Of a stretch of DNA of 64,000 nt, positions 57,392 through 59,260 are shown piece after piece. This stretch comes from the human T2T-CHM13v2.0 reference genome, Homo sapiens. The notes beneath the pieces were generated by a model. That model saw nothing but the letters and a program-made list of their open reading frames with translations, did no database searches and was not told where the DNA came from. The stretch covers positions 8,736,001 to 8,800,000 of the forward strand of contig CP068257.2 in NCBI GenBank assembly GCA_009914755.4, read 5' to 3'. Each line of letters starts with the position of its first letter. Within the stretch, counting starts at the first letter, position 1. Position numbers and translations under genes: made by a program.

Positions 57392-59260
57392 TACGTGGTT
57401 GATCCTACCAGTACCATATGCTTGTCTCAAAGATTAAGCCATACATGTCTAAGTACACAGGGCCGGTACAGTGAAATTGCGAATGGCTCATTAAATCAGT
57501 TAGGGTTCTTTTGGTCACTCTCTCCTCTCCTACTTGCAAAACTGTGGTAATTATAGAGCTAATACATGCCGAAGGGCACTGATCCCCTTCGCGGGGAAGA
57601 TGCGTGCATTTATCAGATCAAAACCAACCCGGTCAGCCCCTCTTCAGCCCAGGCCGGGGGAGGGGTTCGGGTGCCACTGGCTTTGGTGACTCTAGATAGC
57701 CTTGGGTTAATCGCACGCCCCCCGTGGCAGGGACGACCCATTCGAACGTCTGCCCTATCAACTTTCAATGGTAGTTGCTGTGCCTACCATGGTGACCATG
57801 GGAGACGGGGAATCAGAGTTCGATTCTGGAGAGGGAGCCTGAGAAATGGCTACCACATTCAAGGAAGGCAGCAGGCATGCAAATTACCCACTCCCGACCC
57901 GAAGAGGTAGTGACGAAAAATAACAAAACAGGACTCTTTTGAGGTCCTGTAATTGGAATGAGTCCACTTTAAATCCTTTAATGAGGATCCATTGGAGGGC
58001 AAATCTAGTGCCAGCAGCCGCAGTAATTCCAGCTCCAATAGCGTATATTAAAGTTGCTGCAGTTAAAAAGCTCGTAGTTGGATCTTGGGAGCGGGTGGGC
58101 GGTCTGCCACGAGGCGAGCCACCACCCATCCCCGCCCCTTGCCTCTTGGCGCCCCCCTGATGCTCTTAGCTGAGTGTCCTGCAGCCCGAAGCGTTTACTT
58201 TGAAAAAATTAGAGTGTTCAAAGCAGGTCCGAGCCGCCTGGATACCTCAGCTAGGAATAATGGAATAGGACCGCGGTTCTATTCTGTTGGTTTTCGGAAC
58301 TGAGGCCATGATTAAGAGGGACGGGCGGGGGCATTCGTATTGCGCCGCTAGAGGTGAAATTCTTGGGCCGGCGCAGTTCGGACCAGAGTGAAAGCATTTG
58401 CCAAGAATGTTTTCATTAATCAAGAACGAAAGTCGGAGGTTCGAAGACGATCAGATACAGTCGTAGTTCCGACCATAAACGATGCCAACTGGCGATGTGG
58501 CAGCGTTATTCCCATGACCCGCTGGGCAGCTTCCAAGAAACCAAAGTCTTTGGGTTTTTAGGTTCCGGGGGGAGTATGGTTGCAAAGCTGAAACTTAAAG
58601 GAATTGGTGGAAGGGACCAGCAGGAGTGGCGCCTATGGCTTAATTTGACTCAACATGGGAAAAATCACCCGGACGGACATGGACAGGATTGACAGATTGA
58701 TAGCTCTTTCTCTGTTCCATGGGTGGTGGTGCATGGCCTTAGTTGGTGGAGTGATTTGTCTGGTTAATTCCGATAACCAACGAGACTCTGGCATGCTAAC
58801 TAGTTACGCGACCCCTGAGCGGTCGGCGTCCCCCAACTTCTTAGAGGGACAAGTGGCGTTCAGCCACCGGAAATTGAGCAATAACAGGTCTGTGATGCCC
58901 TTAGATGTACGGGGCTGCACGTGCACTACACTGACTGGCTCAGCGTGTGCCTACCCTATGTGGCAGAGGCGGGTAACCTGTTGAACCCCATTCGTGATGG
59001 GGATGGGGGATTGCAATTATTCCCCATGAAGGAGGAATTTCCAGTAAGTGTGGGTCATAAGCTTACCTGAAGTCCCTGCCCTATGTACACACTGCCCGTC
59101 GCTACTACTGATAGGATGGTTTAGTGAGGCCCTTGGATGGGCCCCGCCAGGTCAGCCCACTGCCCTGGCAGAGCACTGAGAAGACAGGCGAACTTGACTA
59201 TCTAGAGGAAGTAAAAGTCCTAACAAAGTTTCGGTAGGTGAACCTGCTGAGGGATCATTA
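57392..59260 (+). rRNA. 18S rRNA gene copy, diverged and very likely a nonfunctional rDNA pseudogene
   Basis: Begins tacgtggttgatcctaccagtaccatatgcttgtctcaaagattaagccatacatgtctaagtacacagggccggtacagtgaaattgcgaatggctcatt (canonical TACCTGGTTGATCCTGCCAGTAGCATATGC...CATGCATGTCTAAGTACGCACGGCCGG...GAAACTGCG). Ends ...gtaggtgaacctgctgagggatcatta (canonical GTAGGTGAACCTGCGGAAGGATCATTA). Collinear over the full ~1869 nt with about 8 mismatches per 100 in the parts compared by eye, dominated by CpG transitions, plus small indels such as gggtttttaggttccgggggg (extra bases) and ggccttagttgg (missing GTTC). Confidence 0.9.

What the first reader, a model, noticed from the sequence alone, without database searches (positions are those of the whole stretch)
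57392..59260. Mutation spectrum of the 18S copy indicates long-term CpG methylation and loss of selection
Most differences from canonical 18S are at CpG dinucleotides (for example ACGCACGGCCGG to acacagggccgg, CATGCATG to catacatg, CCGTCG to cagtcg, GCCGACCGGCGATGCGGCGGCG to gccaactggcgatgtggcagcg). There are also indels in structurally constrained regions (an extra tttag run before ggttccggggggagtatgg, a 4-nt loss in GGCCGTTCTTAGTTGG, and the altered segment ...catgggaaaaatcacccggacggacatggacagg). This pattern is the signature of a methylated, untranscribed copy, and it gives a molecular clock for when the copy left the concerted-evolution pool.
Basis: seen in the sequence. Interest (0 to 1): 0.5.

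Follow-up and report, generated by a model that had tools for sequence, protein, structure and literature searches.

The report
Decayed 18S rRNA pseudogene near centromere

Summary
Window 57392-59260 is a full-length 18S copy that is 91% identical to canonical human 18S, with 133 substitutions and 9 indels. CpG positions are 16% of sites but carry 56% of substitutions (odds ratio 8.6, p=6e-29). 43% of substitutions are classic CpG-to-TpG/CpA transitions, and half of the 152 CpGs are gone. The 5.8S shows the same pattern.

Selection is absent. Rates are equal at universally conserved and variable positions. The 29 broken helix pairs match a shuffling expectation of 29.6. 44 universal nucleotides are hit.

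The copy is part of a DNA-level fragment of an rDNA unit: intergenic spacer with CDC27 pseudogene and (CT)n blocks, 5'ETS from +922, 18S, ITS1, 5.8S and truncated ITS2. It has no promoter and no 28S, and it lies beside alpha satellite. It is human, since contaminant contigs are 100% identical, and it has paralogues.

A generic clock gives about 38 Myr. Phylogenetic placement of the ETS among primate rDNAs, plus the ape-only CDC27 insertion, puts the escape on the ape stem at about 20-26 Myr. So the clock needs local calibration.

Methylation is inferred and was not measured. "Untranscribed" is untested. Such pseudogenes are already described and annotated, so interest is low.

The parts
57392..59260 (+). 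18S rRNA pseudogene (the finding). Full length, 91% identical to canonical human 18S, with 133 substitutions and 9 indels.
   Evidence: Rfam RF01960 1345.9 bits against 1690.3 for canonical. Alignment and spectrum. Structure mapping.
55403..57391 (+). 5'ETS-derived DNA. It starts at about position +922 of the canonical 5'ETS. The promoter and the first ~0.9 kb of the ETS are absent.
   Evidence: BLAST to human rDNA contigs gives ~80% identity. Alignment with primate ETS. About 750 alignment gap columns against the human ETS in 56501-57391.
56519..56608 (+). mir-663-type hairpin inherited from the 5'ETS. The miR-663b 22-mer is exact at 56597-56618. The miR-663a 22-mer has three changes.
   Evidence: Rfam RF00957 97.9 bits. 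Canonical rDNA itself scores 102.5. Mature sequences from PMC4969525 Table 1. String search and alignment.
59261..60317 (+). ITS1-derived spacer.
   Evidence: Collinear BLAST alignment to human rDNA contigs L019, L021 and L024. GC 0.69, CpG o/e 0.67.
60318..60469 (+). 5.8S rRNA pseudogene.
   Evidence: Rfam RF00002 117.6 bits. Against canonical: 9 of 34 CpG sites and 4 of 123 non-CpG sites changed, plus one deletion.
60470..61329 (+). ITS2-derived spacer, truncated at about +940 of ~1155. There is a sharp switch from GC-rich to AT-rich DNA at 61329/61330, and no 28S follows.
   Evidence: BLAST to L019 ends at 61327. Sequence. No LSU match anywhere in the window.
51778..53416 (-). Processed CDC27 pseudogene, the landmark of the ape rDNA intergenic spacer. 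51778-52245 encodes CDC27 residues 470-637 without introns. N-terminal pieces lie at 53120-53182 and 53339-53416.
   Evidence: phmmer against PDB CDC27 chains gives E about 1e-110. Pfam TPR hits. Coordinates. IGS cdc27 pseudogene described in PMC8700125 and PMC6281188.
40656..48489 (.). (TTTC)n tract (40656-40937) and three long (CT)n-type blocks (43740-44424, 44719-45511, 47383-48489) among Alus. This composition is like the rDNA intergenic spacer.
   Evidence: TRF. (CT)n high-density clusters are reported as nearly exclusive to rDNA, with three clusters per IGS (preprint 10.64898/2026.03.22.713381). CpG o/e is 0.36-0.56 here against ~0.2 in 1-24 kb. The homology itself was not tested because no IGS reference was held.
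54580..55374 (-). Alu elements and fragments sitting at the 5' edge of the ETS fragment, where promoter-proximal IGS and ETS +1 to +921 would be.
   Evidence: Sub-threshold Metazoa_SRP hits. BLAST to Alus in rDNA contigs. Sequence.
63212..64000 (.). Alpha-satellite array with a 172-bp period, 4.6 copies at 82% match, running off the window end. It places the fragment at a centromere flank.
   Evidence: TRF. A 16-mer of the consensus occurs only in two alpha-satellite papers.

Best explanation
The 18S copy is a non-functional relic inside a DNA-level fragment of a ribosomal DNA repeat. The fragment runs from intergenic spacer with its CDC27 pseudogene and (CT)n blocks, through 5'ETS from about +922, 18S, ITS1 and 5.8S, to a truncated ITS2.

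This fragment was moved out of a nucleolar-organiser array into pericentromeric DNA on the ape stem lineage, roughly 20-26 Myr ago. There it no longer took part in concerted evolution and was no longer under selection. It has no promoter and no 28S, so it cannot make a ribosomal subunit RNA.

Since then it has evolved neutrally. Its unusually dense CpGs (o/e about 1.0 at the start) have been lost about 9-10 times faster than other sites, mostly as CpG to TpG/CpA. This is what spontaneous deamination of 5-methylcytosine in the germ line produces. Half the CpGs remain only because the starting density was so high and the time has been too short to reach equilibrium.

The fragment was later copied again by segmental duplication. 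The first split came about halfway along its history and others more recently, which gives a small paralogue family in the human genome.

What is shown: identity, anatomy, neutral pattern, CpG excess, relative date, human origin, existence of paralogues. What is inferred: germ-line methylation as the cause, the mechanism of transfer, and transcriptional silence.
For: Identity and anatomy:
- Rfam hits for 18S, 5.8S and mir-663 lie in canonical order.
- BLAST to human rDNA contigs is collinear over 55403-61327, with no 28S.
- A CDC27 pseudogene lies upstream on the minus strand.
- (CT)n blocks are present upstream.
- Alpha satellite lies at 63212-64000.

CpG decay:
- Odds ratio 8.6, p=6e-29.
- 57 CpG transitions, and 74 of 152 CpGs retained.
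- Per-site CpG loss is 9.4x the non-CpG divergence.
- The 5.8S replicates the pattern.
- Non-CpG G/C sites change at 5.3% and A/T sites at 2.3%, against 25% at CpG sites, so the CpG effect far exceeds general GC-to-AT pressure.
- Relative to functional primate rDNA from the same node, the copy's branch is 2.1x longer on all columns but only 1.3x on CpG-free columns.

No selection:
- Rates are equal at conserved and variable positions, and 44 universal nucleotides are hit.
- Broken and retained pairs sit at the shuffled expectation.
- The copy scores 344 bits lower on the Rfam model than canonical 18S.

Date:
- The ETS joins the primate tree as sister to all five apes (80% bootstrap on CpG-free columns).
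- The node lies at 0.80-0.86 of the ape/macaque split.

Human origin and paralogues:
- Contigs L034 and L037 from human-associated metagenomes are 100% identical to the window over 2.7 kb and 1.3 kb, including non-rDNA flank. Other contigs are 99.2-99.9%, 97% and ~91% identical.
- In the ETS, 30 derived changes are shared by the window, L042 and L013, 22 by the window and L042 only, and 32 are private to L013.

Known class:
- Robicheau et al. 2017 describe degraded 45S+IGS units near centromeres.
Against: - No methylation measurement exists here. The block still has CpG-island-like composition (GC 0.51-0.70, CpG o/e 0.64-0.72), so partial or intermittent hypomethylation cannot be excluded.
- Recent differences between the window and its closest copies show a lower CpG/non-CpG per-site ratio of 2.5-5.4x. 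Those contigs are noisy metagenome assemblies.
- 18 of the 75 CpG-site substitutions are transversions, which deamination does not explain.
- Homology of 26-51 kb to the IGS was not tested directly. That the CDC27 fragment is the same insertion as the one in the IGS is inferred from its position and was not shown from shared flanks.
- Rooting of the ETS tree relies on macaque alone, so a split just before the ape/monkey divergence is excluded only by the CDC27 argument.
- Divergence is somewhat lower in the middle of the 18S (5.4% against 9.2% and 7.6%; heterogeneity p about 0.1). An old gene-conversion patch is therefore not fully excluded.
- The ETS non-CpG branch (0.059) is longer than the 18S non-CpG divergence (0.038), although the intervals overlap.
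Confidence: 0.88

Rival explanations
1. It is a functional or specialised variant 18S gene, a divergent rRNA that is expressed and used in some ribosomes.
For: It is full length with exactly 1869 nt and still scores 1346 bits on the eukaryotic SSU model. Five double changes keep base pairs intact, a borderline excess over the 2.1 expected (P about 0.05).
Against: - There is no promoter, the first 922 nt of the 5'ETS are missing, and there is no 28S.
- Substitution rates are identical at universally conserved and variable positions.
- 44 universal nucleotides are changed. By my recollection of the numbering these include G625>A in the 530 loop, C1701>T at the decoding centre and C1842>G. A 4-nt deletion falls in the conserved h34 strand.
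- 29 canonical pairs are broken, which is exactly the neutral expectation.
- Four of the five 'compensated' pairs are simply two CpG transitions.
- The unchanged length is a coincidence of 14 nt inserted and 14 nt deleted.
Confidence: 0.01
2. It is an RNA-mediated retrocopy of pre-rRNA or 18S rRNA, and did not arise as a DNA-level piece of an rDNA array.
For: The fragment is 5'-truncated within the ETS, as L1-mediated retrocopies often are.
Against: - Non-transcribed intergenic-spacer landmarks lie directly upstream in canonical order: the CDC27 pseudogene and three (CT)n blocks.
- The 3' end falls inside ITS2 with no poly(A) tract.
- Robicheau et al. make the same argument for this class of sequence.
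Confidence: 0.03
3. The CpG-biased spectrum reflects relaxation of a GC-rich sequence towards AT (general GC-to-AT mutation pressure or loss of biased gene conversion) and not long-term methylation. The block has stayed largely unmethylated, like a CpG island.
For: The block still meets CpG-island composition. Non-CpG G/C sites change 2.3x more often than A/T sites. Recent between-copy differences show only a 2.5-5.4x CpG excess.
Against: - CpG sites change 4.7x more often than non-CpG G/C sites, and CpG transitions 5.4x more often than non-CpG G/C transitions.
- The saturation-corrected ratio of 9-12x is the value usually quoted genome-wide for methylated CpGs (established knowledge).
- Functional rDNA spacer, which is equally GC-rich, lost CpG-column states about 2.75x more slowly over the same interval.
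- Pericentromeric DNA next to satellite is generally methylated (established knowledge).
Confidence: 0.07
4. The copy has a mosaic age. Part of the 18S (about 520-1250) was overwritten by canonical rDNA through gene conversion after the escape, so no single clock applies.
For: - Divergence is 5.4% in the middle against 9.2% and 7.6% at the ends.
- In contigs L042 and L039, derived changes shared with the window cluster at the two ends of the 18S, while the middle carries independent changes.
- Three independent assemblies (L013, L040, L041) switch to canonical sequence near 18S position 510-600.
Against: - The heterogeneity is not significant (p=0.13 for CpG and 0.09 for non-CpG). The longest identical run is 74 nt against 68 expected.
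- The contigs are short-read metagenome assemblies of a multi-copy family and are probably chimeric. L013 is demonstrably a three-part mosaic, and L040 has a canonical ETS joined to a pseudogene-type 18S 5' end.
Confidence: 0.1

Closest known systems
Dispersed, centromere-proximal degraded rDNA units in the human genome (Robicheau et al. 2017, PMC5381670), for example the four copies on HSA20
   Same: It holds collinear pieces of 45S plus intergenic spacer. It is heavily diverged from canonical rDNA, lies off the arrays next to centromeric sequence, arose by DNA-level transfer and exists in several copies.
   Different: This copy holds about 5.9 kb of the 45S (ETS +922 to ITS2 +940) and no 28S. 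The HSA20 example in that paper holds about 8 kb of the 45S. The chromosome of this window was not determined. That paper reports no CpG or methylation analysis and no dating.
Annotated human 18S pseudogenes (the RNA18SP series, for example RNA18SP5 on chr21)
   Same: It is a non-functional 18S copy outside the active units, and the class is already named in gene catalogues.
   Different: Whether this window is one of the named RNA18SP loci could not be checked with the tools. RNA18SP5 lies beside the chr21 rDNA units, whereas this copy abuts alpha satellite.
MIR663A / MIR663B loci and the 5'ETS miR-663 sequences
   Same: The hairpin at 56519-56608 matches Rfam mir-663 above threshold and keeps the miR-663b 22-mer exactly. 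Both mature sequences lie in the canonical 5'ETS.
   Different: The miR-663a 22-mer has three changes here. The hairpin is present by descent from the ETS, and nothing shows it is processed. From memory this copy matches neither annotated precursor exactly, but I did not verify that.
CpG decay of methylated neutral repeats (Alu and processed-pseudogene 'CpG clocks')
   Same: It shows a roughly ten-fold excess of CpG>TpG/CpA over other changes, symmetrical on both strands, and a falling CpG o/e.
   Different: The starting CpG density was extreme (o/e 1.04, 8 CpGs per 100 nt), so the block still looks like a CpG island after about 20-26 Myr. The ancestral state is known almost exactly because canonical 18S differs at only 5-12 substitution sites between the four mammalian 18S sequences recovered here.

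Membership tests
Functional eukaryotic 18S rRNA gene | Full-length match to the SSU rRNA covariance model | tested here: met
   RF01960, model positions 1-1831, 1345.9 bits. Canonical human 18S scores 1690.3.
Functional eukaryotic 18S rRNA gene | Universally conserved core nucleotides preserved, with substitutions avoiding conserved sites | tested here: not met
   44 upper-case consensus positions are changed or deleted. Rates at conserved and variable sites are 3.8% vs 3.4% (non-CpG) and 27% vs 24% (CpG), with no significant difference.
Functional eukaryotic 18S rRNA gene | Helices maintained, with fewer broken pairs than chance and compensatory changes | tested here: not met
   29 of 374 canonical pairs are broken, against 29.6+-4.1 in shuffles. 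23 are wobble-retained against 23.3 expected. 5 double changes against 2.1 expected (P about 0.05), and 4 of them are paired CpG transitions.
Functional eukaryotic 18S rRNA gene | Embedded in a complete transcription unit (promoter, full 5'ETS, 28S) | tested here: not met
   Homology starts at ETS +922 and ends in ITS2. There is no LSU hit in the window.
Dispersed degraded rDNA unit (Robicheau et al. 2017 class) | Collinear 45S segments including transcribed spacers | tested here: met
   ETS, 18S, ITS1, 5.8S and ITS2 are in order, with ~80% identity to human rDNA in the spacers.
Dispersed degraded rDNA unit (Robicheau et al. 2017 class) | Intergenic-spacer sequence attached, showing DNA-level origin | tested here: inconclusive
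   A CDC27 processed pseudogene (E about 1e-110) and three (CT)n blocks lie upstream in canonical order. Direct alignment to a full IGS was not possible, and the promoter-proximal 3.7 kb of IGS is absent.
Dispersed degraded rDNA unit (Robicheau et al. 2017 class) | Located off the rDNA arrays, centromere-proximal | tested here: met
   A monomeric alpha-satellite array lies 1.9 kb downstream. There is no neighbouring rDNA unit in 64 kb. The chromosome was not determined.
5-methylcytosine deamination (methylated-CpG decay) signature | Excess of CpG>TpG/CpA over other substitutions, of the order of ten-fold per site | tested here: met
   8.7x raw and 11.6x saturation-corrected against non-CpG transitions. 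9.4x for total CpG loss against non-CpG divergence. Replicated in the 5.8S and against functional rDNA.
5-methylcytosine deamination (methylated-CpG decay) signature | Roughly equal TpG and CpA products (both strands), with no transcription-type asymmetry | tested here: met
   C>T 35 against G>A 22 at CpG (p=0.11). All C>T 44 against G>A 39 (p=0.66).
5-methylcytosine deamination (methylated-CpG decay) signature | The locus is actually methylated in the germ line | not testable with these tools
   No methylome data are available here. The claim is inferred only.
mir-663 microRNA family | Hairpin matching the family model above the gathering score | tested here: met
   97.9 bits against a gathering score of 75. 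The canonical 5'ETS itself scores 102.5, so the hit reflects shared descent from the ETS.
mir-663 microRNA family | Transcribed and processed into a mature miRNA from this locus | not testable with these tools
   The miR-663b 22-mer is intact at 56597-56618 and miR-663a has 3 mismatches. No expression data are available.
RNA-mediated (processed) rRNA retro-pseudogene | Corresponds to a transcript, with a 3' poly(A) and no non-transcribed spacer | tested here: not met
   It ends inside ITS2 without a poly(A) tract. Non-transcribed IGS landmarks lie upstream.

The most novel reading that the evidence does not exclude
Three independent metagenome assemblies (L013, L040, L041) join a pseudogene-type 5' third of 18S to perfectly canonical 18S at about the same place, and one of them has a canonical ETS upstream. 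This could reflect a real hybrid copy in human genomes and not an assembly artefact. That would mean sequence is still being exchanged, by gene conversion or recombination, between pericentromeric rDNA pseudogenes and active or array-edge rDNA units, so 'dead' copies could feed variants back into the arrays.
Probability: 0.08. Interest if true: 0.55.

Novelty: already known. Interest (0 to 1): 0.15.

Why it matters
It matters only modestly. The locus is a clean worked example of neutral decay. The ancestral 18S state is known almost base for base, so the CpG and non-CpG rates, the loss of base pairing and the escape date can all be read directly. A generic genome-wide clock overshoots by about half for this GC-rich DNA.

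In practice such copies matter as mapping traps. They attract rRNA, 5'ETS and miR-663 reads and rDNA variant calls, and they appear as chimeric contigs in metagenome assemblies.

The fragment also preserves a snapshot of stem-ape rDNA spacer. It could help reconstruct ancestral ETS, ITS and IGS, for example to ask whether the long (TC)n blocks called human-unique are older than thought. None of this changes current understanding.

Tried and rejected
- L013 as a clean second copy for dating. It is a three-part mosaic: a third lineage up to ~56100, window-like to 18S ~510, then 100% canonical. I used it only for the ETS segment.
- Mosaic-age test of the window's 18S. Zone and 200-nt window rates and the longest identical run show no significant heterogeneity.
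- Search for 28S or a second unit. Rfam at gathering and E-value thresholds over the whole window, and BLAST to 28S-bearing contigs, found nothing.
- First exact-ORF look-up (55243-55914) found nothing. Three others succeeded.
- Recent-difference spectrum between the window and near-identical contigs. It is informative but noisy, with many transversions that are probably assembly errors, so I did not rely on it.
- I first assumed the 3'-end changes hit the h45 dimethyl-adenosine loop. Numbering from the 3' end showed that the loop (GGTGAACC) is intact and the changes are at 1829, 1836, 1842, 1857 and 1860, so I dropped that claim.
- The chromosome and locus name could not be determined, because no human genome collection is available in the tools. 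The mir-4477-like hit and my recollection of the MIR663A/B precursor sequences are leads only.
- I did not attempt a direct alignment of 26-54 kb to a full IGS. The only source was a supplementary file readable 10 kb at a time.
- Robicheau et al. 2017 was checked for CpG or methylation analysis and has none.
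Full report
WHAT IS THERE.
Rfam finds a full-length eukaryotic SSU rRNA match at exactly 57392-59260 on the + strand (1345.9 bits). A 5.8S lies at 60318-60469 and a mir-663 hairpin at 56519-56608. No 28S exists anywhere in the window, either at the gathering threshold or at E-value thresholds.

For a real reference I scanned metagenome contigs for a canonical mammalian 18S motif and obtained 30 loci. Five contigs from human-gut samples carry an identical 1869-nt 18S. Their 5'ETS is 99.7% identical to the human row of the published primate rDNA alignment (PMC6281188 S6), so they are human rDNA. 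Three other mammalian 18S groups differ from this sequence at only 5-12 substitution sites. The ancestral state is therefore known almost exactly.

THE OBSERVATION.
The window copy differs from canonical 18S by 133 substitutions and 28 gap columns.
- 57 substitutions (43%) are CpG>TpG/CpA transitions.
- 75 (56%) fall on CpG positions, which are only 299 of 1855 aligned sites (16%). The odds ratio is 8.6 and p=6e-29.
- Per-site rates are 19.1% for CpG transitions, 6.0% for CpG transversions, 5.3% for non-CpG G/C sites and 2.3% for A/T sites.
- 74 of 152 CpG dinucleotides survive in place, and CpG o/e falls from 1.04 to 0.64.

They sum to +14/-14 nt. The 5.8S is an independent replicate, with 9 of 34 CpG sites changed against 4 of 123 non-CpG sites.

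LOSS OF SELECTION.
I stitched the Rfam consensus structure from three alignments. I checked my transcription against the window: 1831 model positions and 447 balanced pairs.
- Of 374 pairs that are canonical in human 18S, 317 are unchanged. 23 are changed on one side but still pair, mostly G-C to G-U. 29 are broken, and 5 are changed on both sides and still pair.
- Shuffling the substitutions among sites of the same base and CpG class gives 29.6+-4.1 broken, 23.3 retained and 2.1+-1.4 double (P about 0.05). Four of the five double changes are simply two CpG transitions.
- Rates are the same at universally conserved (upper-case consensus) positions and at variable ones: 3.8% vs 3.4% non-CpG (p=0.78) and 27% vs 24% CpG (p=0.64).
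- 44 universal nucleotides are hit. By my recollection of the numbering, these include G625>A in the 530 loop, C1701>T at the decoding centre, and G1829C, G1836A and C1842G near the 3' end.
- Canonical 18S scores 1690.3 bits on the same model, against 1345.9 for this copy.

The copy therefore evolves with no detectable constraint.

CONTEXT.
BLAST to human rDNA contigs shows collinear homology from 55403 (about 5'ETS +922) to 61327 (about ITS2 +940). Identity is ~80% in the spacers. The 3' edge is a sharp switch from GC-rich to AT-rich DNA at 61329/61330. The 5' edge abuts Alu fragments.

Upstream, the minus strand at 51778-52245 encodes human CDC27 residues 470-637 without introns (E about 1e-110 to PDB CDC27 chains). 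N-terminal CDC27 pieces lie at 53120-53416. An abridged CDC27 pseudogene is the known landmark of the human rDNA intergenic spacer (PMC8700125; PMC6281188).

Further upstream are a (TTTC)n tract and three long (CT)n blocks among Alus. Such (CT)n clusters are reported as almost exclusive to rDNA, with three per spacer (preprint). The window ends in a 172-bp-period array. A 16-mer from its consensus occurs only in alpha-satellite papers.

The 18S is thus one part of a DNA-level fragment of an rDNA unit lying at a centromere flank. This is the class described by Robicheau et al. 2017. 18S pseudogenes are already named in gene catalogues, for example RNA18SP5.

SPECIES AND PARALOGUES.
Exact look-ups of three window ORFs returned contigs from human gut, oral and bile metagenomes. 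L034 (2666 bp) and L037 (1327 bp) are 100% identical to the window, including non-rDNA flank. Others are 99.2-99.96%, 97% and ~91% identical. The window is therefore human and belongs to a small paralogue family.

Several contigs (L013, L040, L041) switch from pseudogene-type to exactly canonical sequence near 18S position 510-600. These are most likely assembly chimeras.

DATING.
Non-CpG divergence of the 18S is 0.038 (95% interval 0.028-0.048). At 1e-9 per site per year this gives 38 Myr, and 17-55 Myr over plausible rates.

A rate-free test used about 820 aligned columns of 5'ETS from human, chimpanzee, gorilla, orangutan, gibbon and macaque.
- The window shares the ape state at 40 of the 48 sites where all apes differ from macaque.
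- It does not consistently share great-ape-specific states (3 vs 5, and 3 vs 6).
- It has 60 private changes.
- Neighbour-joining places the window family as sister to all five apes, with 80% bootstrap on CpG-free columns.
- With midpoint rooting the node lies at 0.80 (0.63-0.96) to 0.86 (0.59-1.11) of the ape/macaque split.

[quoted passage not shown] Together these results place the escape on the ape stem. That is about 20-26 Myr if the ape/monkey split is taken as 25-30 Myr (established knowledge). The local non-CpG rate is then about 1.5-2e-9, so a generic clock overshoots.

Within the family, 30 derived ETS changes are shared by all copies, 22 by the window and L042 only, and 32 are private to L013. 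This fits one escape, a first duplication about halfway along the branch, and later ones.

IS IT METHYLATION?
CpG dinucleotide survival of 0.49 implies a per-site loss 9.4 times the non-CpG divergence. That is the ratio usually quoted for methylated CpGs genome-wide (established knowledge). It is far above the 2.3-fold general G/C-over-A/T effect.

From the same tree node, the window branch is 2.1 times the mean ape rDNA branch on all columns but only 1.3 times (0.84-2.3) on CpG-free columns. That works out to about 0.20 against 0.07 substitutions per CpG column. So the excess relative to functional, partly unmethylated rDNA is CpG-specific. TpG and CpA products are not significantly unequal (35 vs 22, p=0.11).

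The remaining CpG-island-like composition (o/e 0.64-0.72) is explained by the extreme starting density. Methylation itself was not measured, and the claim of transcriptional silence is untested. The mir-663 hairpin is present by descent from the ETS, since canonical rDNA scores 102.5 bits. The miR-663b 22-mer is intact and miR-663a has three changes.

VERDICT.
The object is an ordinary, already described kind of sequence.

Noticed in passing
window 63212-64000: A tandem array with a 172-bp period (4.6 copies, 82% match) runs off the window end. Its consensus is alpha-satellite-like, so the window sits at a centromere flank.
   Followed up: partly
window 51778-53416 (minus strand): A processed CDC27 pseudogene (residues ~76-170 and 470-637 recognisable, with frameshifts) lies 2-3.6 kb upstream of the ETS fragment. 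It is the landmark of the ape rDNA intergenic spacer.
   Followed up: yes
window 43740-44424, 44719-45511, 47383-48489; also 40656-40937: There are three long (CT)n-type blocks and a (TTTC)n tract. PMC6281188 calls the two long [TC]n blocks of the human rDNA 'unique' to human, yet this ~20-Myr-old escaped copy also has kilobase-scale (CT)n blocks. Either they are ancestral or they expanded in parallel.
   Followed up: no
window 35849-35922 (both strands): A palindromic hairpin matches Rfam mir-4477 just below threshold (71.5 and 68 bits, gathering score 74). From memory MIR4477A/B are pericentromeric on chromosome 9, which is a possible clue to the locus or to a shared duplicon.
   Followed up: no
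L013 (1948-3822), L040 (5458-7332), L041 (1-1795): Three independent metagenome assemblies carry an 18S whose first ~510-600 nt are pseudogene-type and whose remainder is exactly canonical. L040 also has a canonical ETS upstream. This is either a recurrent assembly chimera or a real hybrid copy.
   Followed up: partly
window 57392-59260, 18S positions ~520-1250: The middle of the 18S is less diverged (5.4%) than the ends (9.2% and 7.6%). It shares few derived changes with contigs L042 and L039, although the ends do. The heterogeneity is not significant (p about 0.1).
   Followed up: yes
window 56501-57391: The 3' part of the ETS fragment aligns to the human 5'ETS with about 750 gap columns. 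There is a large length difference, either a deletion here or an expansion in the functional lineage.
   Followed up: no
window 26001-30000 and 32001-50000: This DNA is GC-rich (up to 0.61) with CpG o/e 0.36-0.56, well above the ~0.2 of 1-24 kb and 61.3-63.2 kb. It is possibly more degraded intergenic spacer. No rRNA remnant was detected there.
   Followed up: partly
window 2589-2792: A GC-rich 34-bp minisatellite with 6 copies at 82% match.
   Followed up: no
L008 6341-6430 and L008 4167-4256: Canonical human rDNA itself matches Rfam pRNA (83.7 bits) upstream of the promoter and mir-663 (102.5 bits) in the 5'ETS. The window has the mir-663 region but lacks the pRNA/promoter region.
   Followed up: partly
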